From assembly GCA_049840735.1 (NCBI GenBank), contig JASGJN010000013.1, positions 320,001-384,000 on the forward strand: a stretch of DNA of 64,000 nucleotides, in the 5' to 3' direction. Source of the DNA: Anaeromyxobacter sp. (GTDB taxonomy: Bacteria > Myxococcota > Myxococcia > Myxococcales > Anaeromyxobacteraceae). A program made the translations under genes and the position numbers. Of the stretch, positions 40,231-53,299 are shown piece by piece. The notes under the pieces are model-generated. The model saw nothing but the letters and a program-made list of their open reading frames with translations, did not search any database and was not told the DNA's origin. How positions within the stretch are numbered: the first letter of the stretch is position 1; every line of letters begins with the position of its first letter.

Positions 40231-41199
40231 TTGTCAAGCCTCGTGGCCCCCTCGCCCCTTCTCGACCGGCGGCTCGTGTTCGTGACCGGGAAGGGCGGCG
40301 TGGGGAAGTCCACCGTGACCGCCGCCCTGGCGCTGCTGGCGGCCCGCGCCGGCAAGCGGGTGCTGGTGTGCGAGGCCAACGCCCCCCAGGAGCGGATCGC
40401 CCCGCTGCTGGGCGCGCCGCCGGCCGGCCCGGCCATCCGCGAGGCCCGCCCCGGCCTGTTCACGCTCAACGTCGGGCCGCGCGAGGCCATGCGCGAGTAC
40501 GGGCTGCTGGTCCTCCGCTTCAAGGCGGTCTACGACGCCGTCTTCGAGAACCGGCTCATGCGCTACTTCCTGCGCGTGATCCCGGCGCTGGCCGAGCTGG
40601 TCACGCTGGGGAAGATCCTGCACGAGGTGCGGAGCGTCGGCCCCGAGGGCCGCCCGCGGTGGGACCTGGTGCTGGTGGACGCGCCCGCCACCGGCCACGC
40701 GGTGCAGCTGCTGCGCGTCCCCTCGGCGCTGCTCGACACCGTGCCGGCCGGCCCGCTCCGCCACGACGCCGAGTGGATGCAGCGGCTGCTGGTGGACCCG
40801 GTCACCACCGCCCTGGCGCTGGTGACCCTGCCCGAGGAGCTGCCGGTCAACGAGGTGATCGAGCTGGACGCGCAGGTGCGCGGGGTGCTGGGCATGGCGC
40901 GCGCCGCGCTGATCGTCAACGCCGTGCCGCCGGTCCGCTTCGCGCCGGACGAGGCGGCGCGCCTGCCGGCGCTGGCCGGGGCGCCGCCGCCGCTGGGGCC
41001 GGCGGCCCGCGCCGCGGCGCTGCAGGCCGCGCGGGCCGCGGCGGCCCACCATCATCTGGCCCGCGCCCGCGCCGCCATCGACCTGCCGGCGCTGGAGCTG
41101 CCGCTCCTGCCGGCGGCGGCCTGGGGGCCGGCCGAGGTGGAGGCGGTGGCGGCCGCCCTGCAGGCCGCGGGCGCCGCGCGCGCCGGAGGTGCGCGGTGA
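40231..41199 (+). CDS. ArsA/GET3-family ATPase, copy 1
   Basis: VTGKGGVGKST, VDAPATGH, VTLPEELPVNE. Confidence 0.9.
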   Translation: MSSLVAPSPLLDRRLVFVTGKGGVGKSTVTAALALLAARAGKRVLVCEANAPQERIAPLLGAPPAGPAIREARPGLFTLNVGPREAMREYGLLVLRFKAVYDAVFENRLMRYFLRVIPALAELVTLGKILHEVRSVGPEGRPRWDLVLVDAPATGHAVQLLRVPSALLDTVPAGPLRHDAEWMQRLLVDPVTTALALVTLPEELPVNEVIELDAQVRGVLGMARAALIVNAVPPVRFAPDEAARLPALAGAPPPLGPAARAAALQAARAAAAHHHLARARAAIDLPALELPLLPAAAWGPAEVEAVAAALQAAGAARAGGAR

Positions 41200-42318
41200 G
41201 CCCCGGCGGCGTGCGGGCGCGGCTGGCCGGGCGGCGCATCGCCGTCTGCGTGGGCCCGGGCGGCGTGGGCAAGACCACCGTCTCGGCGGCGCTGGCGCTG
41301 GCGCGGGCCCAGGAGGGCGGGCGCGCGCTGGTCTGCACCATCGATCCGGCCCGGCGGCTCGCCAACGCGCTGGGGCTGGCGGCGCTGGGCAACGTCGAGA
41401 CCCGGGTGCCGCCGCAGAAGCTGGCCGAGGCCGGACTGGAGCCGCGGGGCGAGCTGTGGGCCATGATGCTGGACGTGAAGCGGACCTGGGACGACCTGGT
41501 GACCCGCCACGCGCCCGACCCGGCCCGGCGCGACCGGATCCTGGGCAACCGGCTCTACCAGCAGATGTCGTCGGCGCTGGCCGGCTCGCAGGAGTACATG
41601 GCGATGGAGAAGCTGTACGAGCTGGCGGTGGATTGCGACTACGATTCTCATCGTCCTCGACACGCCCCCCACCGCCCACGCGCTCGACTTCCTCGACGCC
41701 CCGGACCGCATGCTCGACTTCCTGGGCAACGAGACCGCGCGGGCGCTGCTGGCGCCGGCGCTGGGGGCCGGCCGCTTCGGGCTGCGGCTGGCGCAGCTGG
41801 GCGGCAGCTACCTGGCGCGCGGCCTGGCCCGCTTCACCGGGCAGCAGGCCCTCTCCGACCTGGGCGACTTCCTCCAGGGCTTCCAGGGCATGTACGACGG
41901 GTTCAAGGCGCGCGCGGCCGCGGTGCGCGCGCTCCTCTCCCGGCCCGAGGTCGGCTTCGTGCTGGTCAGCTCGCCCAGCCCGCTCTCGGTGGAGGAGTGC
42001 CTGACCTTCCACCGGGCGCTGCAGGAGAAGCGGATGCCGGTGGCGGGCGTGGTGGTCAACCGGCTCACCCCGGCGCTGTGGGCCGGCGGCGCGCTGCCCG
42101 GCGCCGCCGCCCTGGCCGCGGCCCTCCCGCCCGACGCGGCGGGGCTGGCGCCGCGGCTGGCCGCGGCGCTGGCCGAGCACCAGGCGCTGGCCGCCGCCGA
42201 GCGGGAGGCGCTCGCCCCCCTGCTCGCCGCGGTCCCGGCGGCGCAGGCGCTGGTCCCCCGCCTGGAGTCCGACGTCCACGACCTCGCGGGCCTCGCCAGC
42301 CTGGCCCGTGGGCTCTAG
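41196..42318 (+). CDS. ArsA/GET3-family ATPase, copy 2 (frameshift ~41645)
   Basis: GPGGVGKTT, TIDPARRLANALG, GSQEYMAMEKL, LDTPPTAHALDFL. Confidence 0.9.
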
Positions 42319-47935: not shown

Positions 47936-49354
<1,419 letters not shown>

Positions 49355-49357
49355 AGC

Positions 49358-49413
49358 GCATCCGCCCCCGCCCGCCCTTCGAGAGGTTCAGGGCGAGCGG
49401 GGGCGACGGATGC
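49358..49413. repeat. Long REP-like hairpin / probable bidirectional terminator
   Basis: GCATCCG-CCCCCGCCCGCCCT ... AGGGCGAGCGGGGG-CGA-CGGATGC; arm matches the 34491 element at 10/11. Confidence 0.7.
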
Positions 49414-50632
49414 CGTCGCACCCCAAGGGCGCACGCGCTGGAGCAAGTGAAAGGGAGAGGGAGGGGACGAAGGCCGCCATCTTCTCCCGCCCGAACGTCT
49501 CCACCGCCGCCCAGAGGTTGTGGCTTCGGCAACGGAGCCGAAGGTTGCGAGAGGTAGGCGGCCCGCCCAGCGCCTCCGCCTCGATGTGGTCGAGCTCCAG
49601 CTGCCAGCGGCTGCAGCAGCGCCGCCCGTCCGGCGAGACGTAGGAGCAGCAGCCTTCGTCGCGCGCCCACACCTCCCGCCGGACGTCGGCCGTGACGGTG
49701 CGAGGATTGAAGCGGCAAGGCGTGGCGAGGAAGGGGACCGGCTCCCCGGGGATCGCCGGCGCCGCCGACTCGGCCAGCACCGCCGCCTCCACCGGCACCG
49801 TGACCTCGACCGGAGCCGCAGCCTTCGCCAGCCCCACCGCCCCCTTTCGCCTCGAGTGCTTCTCGACCGCGCAGCGGATGGCCTCCTTGAGGACCTCGGC
49901 CAGGTTGCCGTCCGGGACCTTGTGCGAGAGCAGGTTGCGGAGGTCCTCCAGCTCGGCGCGCGCCTCCTCATCGAGCGTGACCCGCAGCGACCACTGCTCG
50001 CCGTTGACCGGCCGAAGCTCCGGACGGCTGGGAGCAGGCGTGGAGACGGGAGCCGTGAGCGCGAACGTGGGCGCCGAGGAGACGGCCGGCTCCGAAGGCA
50101 CGGACGGCGCCGCCTCAATCGGCCCGAGCGCCAGTGCAGTCGCACCCGTCGGATCCACCGGACGGAGCTGGGAGGCGGAAGCCGCAGGAGTGGGCGGAAC
50201 GCGGCGAAGCCCATCCTTCGGCGCCACCACCGGCTTGACCGAGACCACCAGCCGCTCCACGTCGGCCTTGGACTTGAAGGCAGCGCGGCCGAGGAGGTCG
50301 TCCAGGTTCTCCGCCGTCAGCACCTCACGCAGCAGTCCCAGGGTGGTGAGGGAGAGCCGGCCGTCACGCAGCGGCGCCTCGAGGGAGGGAAACCGCGAGA
50401 GCAGCCGCATGGCCGTGATCCGCCGCCAGGCGCCGTCTTCGGAGAGGTGCAGCGCCTCGCGGCAGTAGACCCAGAGCGACGAGAACCCCTGCACCAGGTA
50501 GAGCTTCCGCCGCTCCACCTCGGCCAGCACCAGGAGGAAGTCCACCTTGAGGCCCCGCTCCTCGCCCGCCAGCGACAGCAAACGCCCCATCAGCGTGGAG
50601 TCATCGAGGAGAGCGAGAGTGACATCGGCCAT
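49388..50632 (-). CDS. HNH endonuclease with DUF222-like helical N-terminus
   Basis: GGAGG RBS; VWARDEGCC..C..LELDHIE..GG..NLRLRCRSHN (zinc-finger HNH); codon usage less GC3-biased than neighbours. Confidence 0.88.
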   Translation of the reverse strand: MADVTLALLDDSTLMGRLLSLAGEERGLKVDFLLVLAEVERRKLYLVQGFSSLWVYCREALHLSEDGAWRRITAMRLLSRFPSLEAPLRDGRLSLTTLGLLREVLTAENLDDLLGRAAFKSKADVERLVVSVKPVVAPKDGLRRVPPTPAASASQLRPVDPTGATALALGPIEAAPSVPSEPAVSSAPTFALTAPVSTPAPSRPELRPVNGEQWSLRVTLDEEARAELEDLRNLLSHKVPDGNLAEVLKEAIRCAVEKHSRRKGAVGLAKAAAPVEVTVPVEAAVLAESAAPAIPGEPVPFLATPCRFNPRTVTADVRREVWARDEGCCSYVSPDGRRCCSRWQLELDHIEAEALGGPPTSRNLRLRCRSHNLWAAVETFGREKMAAFVPSLSLSLAPARAPLGCDGIRRPRSP

Positions 50633-50886
50633 GGCGCACCTCCAGCAGATGCCGCCATCGTAAGCCCGGATTCCGAGCCGCTCGCCGAGGCCCCCGGCGC
50701 TTCCCTACGCGTGAGATCGCGACACCCCCTCTCCGCCCCCCCACGACCCTTCACCATCCGCGCAGCACGCGCCCGCAGCGCTGCAGCACAGCCATTTCCA
50801 GCACCCCGCCCCCGCGAACCCCGCCTCGGCGCAAATCCGCGTCAAGCGCAATCGTCAGCCACTCACTCGGGACGCCCCATCCGTCG

Positions 50887-50997
50887 CTTACTCTGGAGCA
50901 AGCGCACAAATAGTGAACCCCGCCGCCCCCCTCCGGCCGCTCCGCCCCCGCCCCGCCGTTTCACTTACTCCGGAGCAAATGCACCCTCAGTGAACCC
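50887..50997. repeat. Two 34-nt imperfect direct repeats separated by 43 nt
   Basis: CTTACTCTGGAGCAAGCGCACAAATAGTGAACCC (50887-50920) vs CTTACTCCGGAGCAAATGCACCCTCAGTGAACCC (50964-50997), 27/34 identical. Confidence 0.8.
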
Positions 50998-51190
50998 ACC
51001 CGCCTCCTCTCGTCCCCAGCCCCCACGCACCTTCAACAGCACTGTCCCAGCCGCGGCGCAGGGGCAGGGGCTCCCCTGCGCCCTGTCCCGCCGGCAGCGC
51101 ACCGGGTAGCTCATCGCTCTCGGACCTGCGCCGCTCGCGGTCCCACCCTGCGCCTTCCCGCCGGCCGCGCCAATCGCGGTCAACCGCCCC

Positions 51191-52132
51191 CTACCGCTCC
51201 TCCAACCTCCCCACCAGCGCCGTCGCCCCTGCGATCCCCGCCGCCCGGAAGCACAGCCCCACTCCCGGCACGGCCAGGATCAGCCCCATCACCACCGCGA
51301 ACCCGGCCGTCTCCCACGGATGACGCTCGGTGAACGCCACCTCGTCGTGCCAGGGCCGCGAGAGCCGGCGGACGATCCGCCCCGTCCACCCCAGCGGCCG
51401 CAGCAGGACGAAGAGCCCTCCCCCGCGCCGCAGCAGGCGCGCGAACCACGGCTCGGGCGCGGGCAGCCGCTCCCCGGGCAGCACCTCGGAGGGCAGCTCG
51501 AAGGCGTCGATGACGATCCAGTGGAAGGTCCACAGGCCGGCCACCACCGCCGCCTCCCACGCCCCGGCCAGCCGCACCACCACGATCACCGGGAAGATCC
51601 CCGCCGCCACCAGCACCGCCTGGCGCAGCGCCTTCGCCGACTCGTGCAGCACCAGCTTCACGAACGGGCCGTGGAAGGTGTCGCGCCCTGGCGAGAACCC
51701 CAGCGCGCGCCGGGCCTCCAGCGCCACCCGGCCCCACTGCCGCTGCAGGAGCGTGGGCGGCATGGAGGCCAGCGCCACGAAGGCGACCGTGAAGGCGTGG
51801 AGCGTGCCCAGCGGGTCCGCCTGCGCCTCCGGGTCTTCGAGGTCGCTCCAGGTGGACCAGGCGGCCACGGCGGCGCAGCCGAGCACGGTCAGCAGGGTGG
51901 GCCAGAGCGCCGCCCGGCGCAGCGCCGGGTCGGTGGCCACGCGGCGGGCCGCGTCCAGCGCCTGCCCCGCGCCCCACAGGAAGCGCCCGGCCGGATCCGG
52001 CCGCGCCGCGGCCTGGGGCGTGGCGGCGTGGAAGCGGAGCGCCTCCAGCGCCTGGCGCGGCCCGCGCACCGCCGGCCCCACCAGCGCGGTGACCAGCGGC
52101 GGCGGAGCCAGCTCCTGGGACGGCTCGCTCAT
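51191..52132 (-). CDS. Hypothetical membrane protein (possibly EI24/CysZ-like)
   Basis: Several hydrophobic helices; start overlaps the deoB stop. Confidence 0.65.
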   Translation of the reverse strand: MSEPSQELAPPPLVTALVGPAVRGPRQALEALRFHAATPQAAARPDPAGRFLWGAGQALDAARRVATDPALRRAALWPTLLTVLGCAAVAAWSTWSDLEDPEAQADPLGTLHAFTVAFVALASMPPTLLQRQWGRVALEARRALGFSPGRDTFHGPFVKLVLHESAKALRQAVLVAAGIFPVIVVVRLAGAWEAAVVAGLWTFHWIVIDAFELPSEVLPGERLPAPEPWFARLLRRGGGLFVLLRPLGWTGRIVRRLSRPWHDEVAFTERHPWETAGFAVVMGLILAVPGVGLCFRAAGIAGATALVGRLEER

Positions 52133-53299
52133 CCCAGCACCTCGCCCCGGAAGCTCCGCCCCACCTCCGGGCGCAGCCCGAAGTGCTCGGCCACGGTGGC
52201 CCCCAGGTCGGCGAACGACTCGCGCGTGCCCAGCGGGCCGCCGCCGCGCCCCGGCGCGTGGACCAGCAGCGGCACGTGCTCGCGCGAGTGGTCGGTGGAC
52301 GGGGTGGTGGGATCGCAGCCGTGGTCGGCGGTGAGGGCGAACAGGTCGCCCGGCCGCAGCCGCGAGAGGAGGCGCGGCAGGGCCTGGTCCAGCGCCTCCA
52401 GCGCCCGCGCGTAGCCGGCCGGGTCGTTGCGGTGGCCGTAGAGCATGTCGAAGTCCACCAGGTTGACGAAGAGCAGGCCGTGATCGAGGCGGTCGAGCAG
52501 CGCCTCGGTGCGCGCCAGCCCGTCGGCGTTCCCCTCGGTGTGGACCTCCTCGCTGATCCCCTTGCGGTCGAAGATGTCCGGGATCTTGCCCACGCCCACC
52601 ACCGGCACGCCCGCCTCCGCCAGCCGCTCCAGCACCGTCGGCACCGGCGTGGCGATGGAGAAGTCCTTCCGGTTGTAGGTGCGGACGTAGCGGCCGGGGG
52701 TCCCCACGAACGGCCGCGCGATGACGCGCGCCACCCGGTGCGGATCGAGCAGCCGCCGCGCGGTGCGGCACCAGGCGTAGAGCGTCTCGAGCGGCACCGT
52801 CTCCTCGTGGGCGGCGATTCTGGAAGACCGAGTCGGCGGAGGTGTAGACGATGGGCTTGCCGGTGCGCTGGTGCTCCGGCCCCAGCTCCTCGATGATGGC
52901 CGTGCCGCTTGCGACCGCGTTGCCCAGCACGCCCGGCGCCCCGGTCTCCGCCAGGAAGGGCCCGATGATCTCCGGCGGGAAGCCCCGCGGGAAGAGCGCC
53001 AGCCCCTGCCGCAGCACCACGCCCATCATCTCCCAGTGGCCGGTGATGGTGTCCTTCCCCTCCGACTGCTCCGCCATGCGCCCGTACCAGCCGGTGGGGG
53101 CCGGGTCCGGCGGCACGCCCAGCACCCGCGTCAGGTGGCCCAGCCCCAGGCGACCCATCACCGGCAGCGAGAGGCCGCCCACGGCGCGGCTCACGTTCCC
53201 GATGGTGTCCGAGCCGGCGTCGCCGTAGGCGGCCGCGTCGGGCAGCGCGCCGCAGCCGGCGCTGTCGGCGACGAGGAGGAGGAAGCGGCGGCGATCCAT
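52129..53299 (-). CDS. deoB: Phosphopentomutase (frameshift ~52818)
   Basis: VADSAGCG, GKDTITGHWE, YTSADSVFQ, NLVDFDMLYGHRND, TADHGCDP, DHSREHVP. Confidence 0.95.

What the first reader, a model, noticed from the sequence alone, without database searches (positions are those of the whole stretch)
49388..51190. HNH nuclease with a long non-coding upstream region holding a structured repeat-spacer-repeat
Seen: the HNH gene is preceded by ~560 nt (50633-51190) lacking a credible ORF, the largest such gap in the window, with strong C/G strand skew. It holds two 34-nt direct repeats (50887-50920, 50964-50997; 27/34 identical) separated by 43 nt. On the HNH strand each folds into a 7-bp hairpin with a 4-nt loop (GCUUGCU-CCAG-AGUAAGC; AUUUGCU-CCGG-AGUAAGU), and the differences between copies keep pairing. 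Known: HNH domains are the nucleases of RNA-guided IscB and Cas9. Inference: candidate RNA-associated nuclease or selfish element with a mini-array or ncRNA. Only two repeats and a low-complexity spacer, so a tandem operator is equally possible.
Basis: partly seen in the sequence, partly recalled or inferred. Interest (0 to 1): 0.8.

Follow-up and report, generated by a model that had tools for sequence, protein, structure and literature searches.

The report
Multi-copy selfish HNH nuclease element
The gene and its upstream repeats are one copy of a 1.7-kb DNA-cutting element scattered through the genomes of these soil bacteria, and the repeats look like binding sites for the element's own protein rather than a guide RNA; how this very large family spreads is still unknown.

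Summary
The two 34-nt repeats are real (27/34, beyond chance), but they are not a CRISPR-like mini-array. They are two copies, from a 77-nt tandem duplication, of a motif belonging to a ~1.7-kb element (49415-51097) with 12 full-length copies in this genome and relatives in all 24 same-genus genomes searched. In paralogs the motif forms head-to-tail 41-nt arrays with no spacers and recurs at the gene's 3' end. The protein is modelled as a ParB/KorB-like DNA-binding domain, a dimerising ribbon-helix-helix-like domain and an intact HNH; no RuvC or Nop domain, Rfam hit or RNA covariation was found. Copies sit mostly between convergent genes, vary in presence between genomes, have ragged ends and often carry locus-specific tandem repeats. 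A new feature: TTGAC lies about 181 bp upstream of the -10 box across 35%-identical subfamilies, with outliers shifted by whole helical turns, pointing to a phased protein-DNA complex. Best reading: a selfish, transposase-less nuclease element of the DUF222-HNH/REP13E12 kind that binds its own palindromes, nicks DNA and is copied by host repair. Binding, nicking and movement are inferred, not shown.

The parts
49388..50632 (-). HNH endonuclease ORF, 414 aa, DUF222-HNH-like family
   Evidence: HNH in 59 of 89 alignment members, DUF222 in 10 of 89 at E<=0.05; 11 further near-full-length copies at 63-72% identity
50228..50605 (-). Residues 10-135: helical ParB/Spo0J/KorB-like DNA-binding domain
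   Evidence: model pLDDT mostly >90; 6s6h Z 6.4 rmsd 7.7 125 aligned, 1vz0 Z 6.0 rmsd 3.4 108, 1r71 Z 5.5 rmsd 3.4 108; middling Z, four ParB-family entries among the top 22
49844..50020 (-). Residues 205-263: strand-helix-helix domain predicted to homodimerise through an antiparallel strand pair centred on residue 217 (ribbon-helix-helix-like)
   Evidence: secondary structure; dimer score 0.57 against best control 0.00; monomer fold search inconclusive; dN/dS 0.13
49478..49711 (-). Residues 308-385: HNH nuclease domain with intact catalytic motif
   Evidence: 5h0o Z 7.8 rmsd 4.1 78 aligned; motif intact in 12 of 12 copies; dN/dS 0.21
49415..49451 (-). 3'-end copy of the element motif, inside the ORF tail; approximate right end of the element
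   Evidence: present at the 3' end of 12 of 12 full-length copies; coordinates
50637..50662 (-). Putative -10 box (50657-50662) and ribosome-binding site (50637-50643) of the HNH gene
   Evidence: conserved across 12 copies and other genomes; coordinates; the -10 label is my inference from the recalled consensus; the standard sigma-70 scan found no promoter
50663..50845 (-). Conserved TTGAC (50841-50845) and the fixed-length, non-coding, unstructured segment between it and the -10 box (183 nt start to start here)
   Evidence: TTGAC in 59 of 64 loci and 30 of 30 further loci; spacing 179-184 in 86 of 89 anchored loci; no codon bias, no covariation
50886..50920 (-).
   Evidence: same two-part motif upstream of homologues in other genomes
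50963..50997 (-).
51006..51106 (-). Conserved left-end block with a G+C-rich hairpin; core begins at 51097
   Evidence: profile built from the 12 copies hits 24 places in the genome: 12 full copies, 1 broken copy, 11 without the gene; coordinates
47954..49354 (+). Host flank: Cys/Met PLP-dependent enzyme, convergent on the element
   Evidence: PF01053 E 2.6e-137
51191..52096 (-). Host flank: EI24/CysZ-like membrane protein gene, co-oriented, ending just before the element
   Evidence: PF07264 E 2.6e-4, below cut-off; extent from codon model

Best explanation
One copy of a chromosomal, multi-copy selfish element that encodes a single protein and no transposase. Shown by computation: the element's extent, copy number, domain architecture and site preference. 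Old copies decay in place.
For: 12 full-length copies plus broken ones in this genome; family in 24 of 24 same-genus genomes. ParB/KorB-like N-terminal fold; predicted homodimer score 0.57, best of 3 controls 0.00, mark reached by 20 of 30 solved pairs and 1 of 23 single chains, runs agree in at least 90% of contacts, partner pLDDT at least 73. HNH motif intact in 12 of 12 and domains under purifying selection. Motif at the 3' end of 12 of 12 copies and upstream in the same orientation in 11 of 12; one motif variant occurs at both ends in 4 of the 5 copies of a clade with 97% support and upstream in 0 of the other 7. Dyad mismatches outside this genome: 15 G-U type, 12 A-C type, 15 other, as expected of a DNA site. 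37 of 49 loci called on both sides lie between convergent genes against 719 of 4629 junctions genome-wide. Two of 4 tested loci of G014 are empty in G006; the window's own junction holds another gene or none in the 5 relatives fetched. Tandem arrays in 17 of 24 left-end zones against 9.5% of random zones. Spacing outliers at about -10, +10 and -42 bp.
Against: No clean insertion was seen: the two empty sites have no target duplication or defined ends and could be deletions in G006. No near-identical recent copies in this genome (nucleotide identity 73-95%), and 7 of 12 G014 loci are shared with G006, so movement is slow or past. End architecture differs between subfamilies: the direct end-to-end repeat scored in 10 of 12 copies here but in only 2 or 3 of the 52 other loci, while 6 of 6 G021 copies have ~90-bp inverted repeats instead. 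Fold Z-scores are middling. The 18-bp dyad is common only in the closer clade. Random control zones are mostly coding, which inflates the tandem-array contrast. Gene orientation calls come from a crude codon model.
Confidence: 0.55

Rival explanations
1. Passenger model: the HNH gene is an autoregulated cassette (repeats are operators only) that is moved by other machinery, such as host Y1/RAYT-type transposases acting on the palindromes that crowd these convergent junctions, or by gene conversion between copies.
For: The genome has 6 Y1_Tnp matches; the stretch upstream of one carries the reverse complement of a motif that ends several gene-less left-end blocks (read by eye); a separate REP-like palindrome with 352 and 492 half-motif hits genome-wide sits inside 9 of 12 copies (by eye); 11 left-end blocks lack the gene. 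REP13E12 loci of M. tuberculosis are gene-conversion hotspots (PMC13061034, passages).
Against: It does not explain why the catalytic HNH motif is kept in 12 of 12 copies under purifying selection, nor the conserved TTGAC spacing in genomes with different palindromes; the window's copy lacks the REP-like insert.
Confidence: 0.2
2. Host-kept module: a family of stress- or damage-induced nucleases, or addiction modules, retained for host benefit or by post-segregational killing, with operator arrays tuning expression.
For: Purifying selection on all three domains; 7 of 12 loci shared between G014 and G006; no match in 50,697 phage or 72,556 plasmid records; strongly conserved promoter architecture.
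Against: Site not conserved in relatives; many broken copies; patchy distribution, 13 of 81 phylum genomes; codon usage unlike host genes; no conserved partner gene seen in the flanks read; the repeats do not resemble the lexA or recA upstream motifs by eye.
Confidence: 0.15
3. One reading: the upstream region yields an RNA (mini-array or ncRNA, possibly a divergent antisense transcript through the repeats) that binds and guides the HNH protein.
For: The two window copies and one paralog copy form clean 7-pair hairpins with compensating differences; arrays of up to 12 units lie beside a nuclease; a conserved hairpin block bounds the region.
Against: No spacers: 30 units are 88% identical with only four scattered variable columns; most units in this genome break the hairpin; no Rfam hit; alignment folding z 0.49 and -0.46 for 12 copies and almost no consensus structure for 33; no stacked Watson-Crick covariation in 94 sequences, Neff 53; no RuvC or Nop domain in the model. 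The covariation tests covered the TTGAC-to-promoter segment, not the length-variable region further upstream.
Confidence: 0.07

Closest known systems
REP13E12 repeats / DUF222-HNH genes of Mycobacterium (PF02720 + PF01844)
   Same: Multi-copy chromosomal repeat with one DUF222-like/HNH gene and no assigned function ('lack defined biological function', PMC13061034 passages; named as a repeat class in PMC10589994 passages). Weak DUF222 match at residues 25-102.
   Different: DUF222 score is below the Pfam cut-off and covers 79 of 306 profile positions; the palindrome arrays, RHH-like dimer domain and phased TTGAC site were not found described for REP13E12 in the searches run; I did not analyse REP13E12 sequences.
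REP/BIME sequences with RAYT (recalled, no call)
   Same: Single nuclease gene flanked by palindromes, tandem palindrome arrays, preference for junctions between convergent genes.
   Different: Nuclease is HNH, not a Y1/HUH enzyme; the element's own motif is almost confined to the element and its remnants (76 hits at up to 4 mismatches, most beside a copy), not spread in hundreds of copies.
Free-standing HNH homing/nicking endonucleases of phages (I-HmuI, MobE; recalled)
   Same: HNH plus DNA-binding domains; proposed spread by nick-initiated host recombination; decay in place.
   Different: Many unrelated chromosomal sites rather than one allelic site; no match in phage records.
IscB/HEARO (OMEGA) RNA-guided nucleases
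   Same: HNH domain (9nvu Z 7.0, 59 residues aligned); multi-copy; non-coding region upstream.
   Different: IscB has the HNH inserted in a RuvC-like domain (PMC13565253 passages); none is seen here; profile score 12.8 against 175; no Rfam hit.
TIGR-TasH
   Same: HNH protein beside an array of ~40-nt units.
   Different: TIGR needs a Nop domain and two variable spacers per 36-nt unit (PMC12045711 abstract and passages); the 41-nt units have no spacer windows and only the HNH part matches TasH (E 1.7).
ParB/Spo0J/Noc/KorB DNA-binding domains
   Same: Helical fold of residues 8-150; these bind palindromic DNA sites as dimers (entry titles; established knowledge).
   Different: No CTPase domain in the model; fused to RHH-like and HNH domains.

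Membership tests
IscB/OMEGA | HNH inserted in a split RuvC-like domain | tested here: not met
   guided_IscB 12.8 bits against cut-off 175, HNH part only; the three confident domains of the model are helical, strand-helix-helix and HNH, leaving no room for RuvC
IscB/OMEGA | Structured omegaRNA/HEARO RNA upstream | tested here: not met
   no Rfam match at E<=5 in 49000-52000; no consensus structure or covariation; folding z near 0
IscB/OMEGA | RNA-guided cleavage | not testable with these tools
   needs biochemistry
CRISPR-like mini-array | Constant repeats separated by unique spacers | tested here: not met
   window spacer is part of a 77-nt duplication; paralog units are head-to-tail, 88% identical
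TIGR-Tas | Two variable spacers per unit between edge and loop repeats | tested here: not met
   majority base at 80% or more in 37 of 41 columns over 30 units; the four variable columns are scattered
TIGR-Tas | Nop domain | tested here: inconclusive
   no Nop Pfam hit among 89 members and no Nop entry listed by the fold searches, but absence from a list does not exclude it
DUF222-HNH / REP13E12 | DUF222 N-terminal domain | tested here: inconclusive
   14.5 bits against cut-off 24.4; 10 of 89 members match at E<=0.05, best 4e-07
DUF222-HNH / REP13E12 | C-terminal HNH domain | tested here: met
DUF222-HNH / REP13E12 | Dispersed multi-copy chromosomal repeat | tested here: met
Classical insertion sequence | Recognised transposase (DDE, HUH, serine or tyrosine recombinase) | tested here: not met
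   Pfam and NCBIfam scans give only DUF222, HNH and a weak IscB match
Classical insertion sequence | Precise ends and/or target-site duplication at empty-site comparison | tested here: not met
   2 of 2 empty sites show neither; 47 and 18 nt of other sequence stand in place of the element; insertion or deletion not resolved
REP-RAYT | Y1/HUH nuclease | tested here: not met
   no Y1_Tnp match for the protein; the genome's Y1 genes lie elsewhere
Ribbon-helix-helix domain | Intertwined dimer with antiparallel strand pair followed by two helices | tested here: inconclusive
   predicted dimer has this topology, but the monomer fold search gave no Z of 5 or more; RHH entries 2k6l Z 3.9 and 3omy Z 3.7 are tied with unrelated rows

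The most novel reading that the evidence does not exclude
A class of mobile element without any known transposase: a dimeric ParB-like/RHH/HNH protein assembles on its own palindromes and on a helically phased ~180-bp segment that separates a -35-like TTGAC from the -10 box by 23 bp plus about 15 turns, so that looping both switches the promoter and aims the nick that starts copy-in by repair synthesis at convergent gene junctions, generating tandem repeats as a by-product. It would give a mechanism for a family with thousands of clusters, possibly including the mycobacterial REP13E12 repeats.
Probability: 0.2. Interest if true: 0.8.

Novelty: new variant of a known kind. Interest (0 to 1): 0.48.

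Why it matters
Multi-copy DUF222-like/HNH genes are very common (16,505 cluster representatives at E<=1e-10, some surely HNH-only matches; look-alike clusters in Myxococcota, Acidobacteriota and Bdellovibrionota) and their mycobacterial counterparts are diversity hotspots of undefined function (PMC13061034, passages). This locus family supplies what a direct test needs: element ends, candidate binding sites, a domain model and a strict geometric constraint. If the protein moves the element, it is a route of spread without a transposase and a compact site-directed nickase; if not, it is an ordinary decaying repeat. It is not evidence of a new RNA-guided system.

Tried and rejected
RNA-guided or mini-array reading: rejected. 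Small hidden ORF in the fixed-length segment: no codon-phase bias and no conserved translation in 9 loci read. SOS box: the lexA and recA upstream regions read do not show the repeat's dyad by eye, and a perfect TTCAC-N5-GTGAA occurs only 7 times in the genome. Universal LTR-like direct repeats: only this genome's subfamily has them. Phage or plasmid origin: no match. Sequencing runs: none was listed, so expression is untested. Solved relatives by sequence: two weak hits only, E 0.072 and 0.5. Foldseek gave no match at E<=0.001. Monomer fold search of the middle domain was uninformative. Standard sigma-70 promoter scan found none. A systematic weight-matrix scan for the 18-bp dyad at the 3' ends of homologues was not completed, so its presence there outside this genome rests on reading by eye. 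Literature searches that found no description of this element: (open-access library only; supplements not searched; Gordon et al. 1999 seen only as a reference line). Earlier-findings look-ups by sequence, by genome and for the TTGAC spacing returned nothing.

Full report
Observation. The match really spans 71 nt at 70% with period 77, so the G-rich spacer belongs to a tandem duplication. The region folds no better than shuffles and has no Rfam match. The claim of largest gap in the window stays unverified.

The element. The window is G000:C13:320001-384000; named homologues are from Anaeromyxobacter and its family. The gene has 11 further near-full-length copies at 63-72% identity, two broken or split copies and one distant one. 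Reading the copies shows a shared layout on the gene's strand: a hairpin block at the left end, G-rich tandem repeats that differ from copy to copy, one to twelve units of a 41-nt repeat, often a separate REP-like palindrome, an inverted half-unit, TTGAC, about 180 conserved-length bases, a -10-like box and ribosome-binding site, the ORF, and one more motif copy in the ORF tail. A profile of the left block hits 24 places, 11 of them without the gene. In window coordinates the element runs from about 51097 to 49415.

What the repeats are. Each unit joins a TCAC-N5-GTGA-like dyad to an 18-bp dyad. With at most one mismatch the first is upstream of 36 of 64 loci from 9 genomes (shuffle mean 4.6) and 13 of 30 further loci (mean 2.6); the left half of the second is in 41 of 64 (mean 10.6), mainly in the closer clade. 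These patterns were defined on the first set, so only the 30-locus set is a fair test. Thirty 41-nt units from 6 copies are 88% identical with four scattered variable columns and no spacer window. One variant of the motif occurs at both ends in 4 of 5 copies of one clade and upstream in none of the other 7, so the two ends change together. Other subfamilies differ: direct end repeats are rare among the other 52 loci, and 6 of 6 G021 copies have ~90-bp inverted repeats. By eye, the dyad also lies at the 3' end of several copies in two other genera, and a different palindrome is at both ends in a distant family; this was not quantified.

The protein. The model (pLDDT 78) has three ordered parts. 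Residues 8-150 align with ParB, Spo0J and KorB DNA-binding domains (Z 6.4, 6.0, 5.5; middling scores for a helical domain, with unrelated helical rows nearby). Residues 205-263 are strand-helix-helix; the monomer search was inconclusive, but two copies fold as a dimer with an antiparallel strand pair centred on residue 217, score 0.57 against a best control of 0.00, runs agreeing in at least 90% of contacts, pLDDT at least 73; the mark was reached by 20 of 30 solved pairs and 1 of 23 single chains, and a pass may reflect likeness to solved RHH dimers (RHH topology recalled). The HNH domain matches phage and restriction HNH nucleases (Z 7.8), is intact in 12 of 12 copies, and all three domains show dN/dS 0.13-0.28 against 0.60 for the linker. 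IscB and TasH match through the HNH only.

The fixed spacing. TTGAC is upstream of 59 of 64 loci (shuffle mean 10) and 30 of 30 further loci (mean 3.5). Those 30 are the ones, of 59 returned, that had an N-terminal match and upstream DNA and did not appear to repeat genomes already used; they come from 13 assemblies and are not independent of each other. Distance to the promoter anchor is 174-180 in 61 of 64 anchored loci (two mis-anchored, one 133) and 174-178 in 29 of 30 (one 167). With one anchor rule, TTGAC to -10 is 179-184 in 86 of 89, 12 loci unplaced; that rule favoured candidates near 181. In other families 5 of 8 loci (3 of 5 genomes) have both anchors, at 165, 165, 167, 168 and 187 against 175-178 for four in-family loci in the same call. 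The five independent outliers thus sit near -10, -10, -10, +10 and -42 bp, whole helical turns; by my rough estimate chance would give that about 2-3% of the time. The A+T profile has a period near 10 (p 0.004 and 0.013 by block shuffles, kin not independent). The segment is not coding and shows no RNA covariation. I infer a looped or wrapped protein-DNA complex; 181 bp equals the usual 23 bp between -35 and -10 starts (recalled) plus 15 turns, which is suggestive only.

Mobility. The family is in 24 of 24 same-genus genomes and 0 of 16 others by single sequence, and 13 of 81 phylum genomes by profile, usually in many copies with many broken. Of 49 loci with both neighbours called, 37 lie between convergent genes, against 719 of 4629 junctions in this genome (crude codon model). 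Of 12 G014 loci, 7 are shared with G006; of the other 5, four were tested: two are empty and two internally deleted. The empty sites show no target duplication and no sharp ends and may be losses. At the window's own junction, 5 relatives fetched lack the HNH gene; two hold a different gene there (188 aa in L196) and one has none. Tandem arrays with locus-specific units of 6-61 nt, mostly G-rich on the gene's strand, occur in 17 of 24 left-end zones against 9.5% of random zones; frameshifts in two nearby host genes warn that assembly errors may affect array lengths.

Mechanism and rivals. Most likely (0.55) a selfish element whose dimeric protein binds its own palindromes and nicks DNA, with host repair synthesis doing the copying; binding, nicking and copying are all inferred. 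A passenger cassette moved by Y1 enzymes or gene conversion (0.2), a host-kept nuclease (0.15) and an RNA-guided system (0.07) remain.

Known and new. The closest described kind is the REP13E12/DUF222-HNH repeat, called functionally undefined in PMC13061034 (passages); membership by DUF222 score is inconclusive. It fails the tested features of IscB (PMC13565253, passages), TIGR (PMC12045711, abstract and passages), CRISPR arrays, classical IS and RAYT. Eight searches of the open-access library (listings only unless named) found no account of the domain architecture, the arrays or the phased TTGAC. Earlier AI notes on other genomes describe similar multi-copy HNH elements with palindromes; they were seen after this reading had formed and are not independent support. 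Verdict: real feature, not RNA-guided on present evidence, a new variant of a known but unexplained kind; interest 0.48.

Noticed in passing
window 52129-53299 (-): A phosphopentomutase-like gene is split over two frames near 52800 (second part PF01676; ORFs); probably an assembly indel, and it makes a false 702-aa fusion with the EI24-like gene.
   Followed up: partly
window 41189-42318 (+): An ArsA/anion-transport-ATPase-looking gene (recalled from its P-loop text) also appears frameshifted; the C-terminal piece had no Pfam hit.
   Followed up: partly
G000 genome-wide: A REP-like palindrome with 352 and 492 half-motif hits sits inside 9 of 12 HNH elements but not the window's copy (by eye); its driver was not identified.
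   Followed up: partly
G000:C26:40848-42066, C21:93506-94487, C20:593222-593674 and others: A separate ~350-430-bp non-coding repeat in many copies, three in tandem on C26, which follows three of the gene-less left-end blocks.
   Followed up: no
G000:C17:580699-581400 (L202): A Y1/RAYT-like gene whose upstream region holds the reverse complement of a ~28-nt motif that ends several gene-less left-end blocks (by eye).
   Followed up: partly
G000:C7:245373, C12:95822, C2:170779: Three near-identical Y1-type transposase genes with a shared ~190-nt upstream end: a recently active element.
   Followed up: no
L044 and L045 (G020), upstream of the HNH gene: This subfamily lacks the distant TTGAC and has a compact promoter with an imperfect TGAAC/GTTCA-type dyad resembling repeats upstream of this genome's lexA and recA (by eye): possibly SOS-controlled.
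   Followed up: no
L015 (G023): The 3' tail of one element copy lies directly upstream of another copy (45-point direct match), i.e. head-to-tail or nested insertion.
   Followed up: no
L152, L164 (G084): Six listed copies in one distant genome, five with an in-frame TAG at the end of the match; ORF end or recoding not examined.
   Followed up: no
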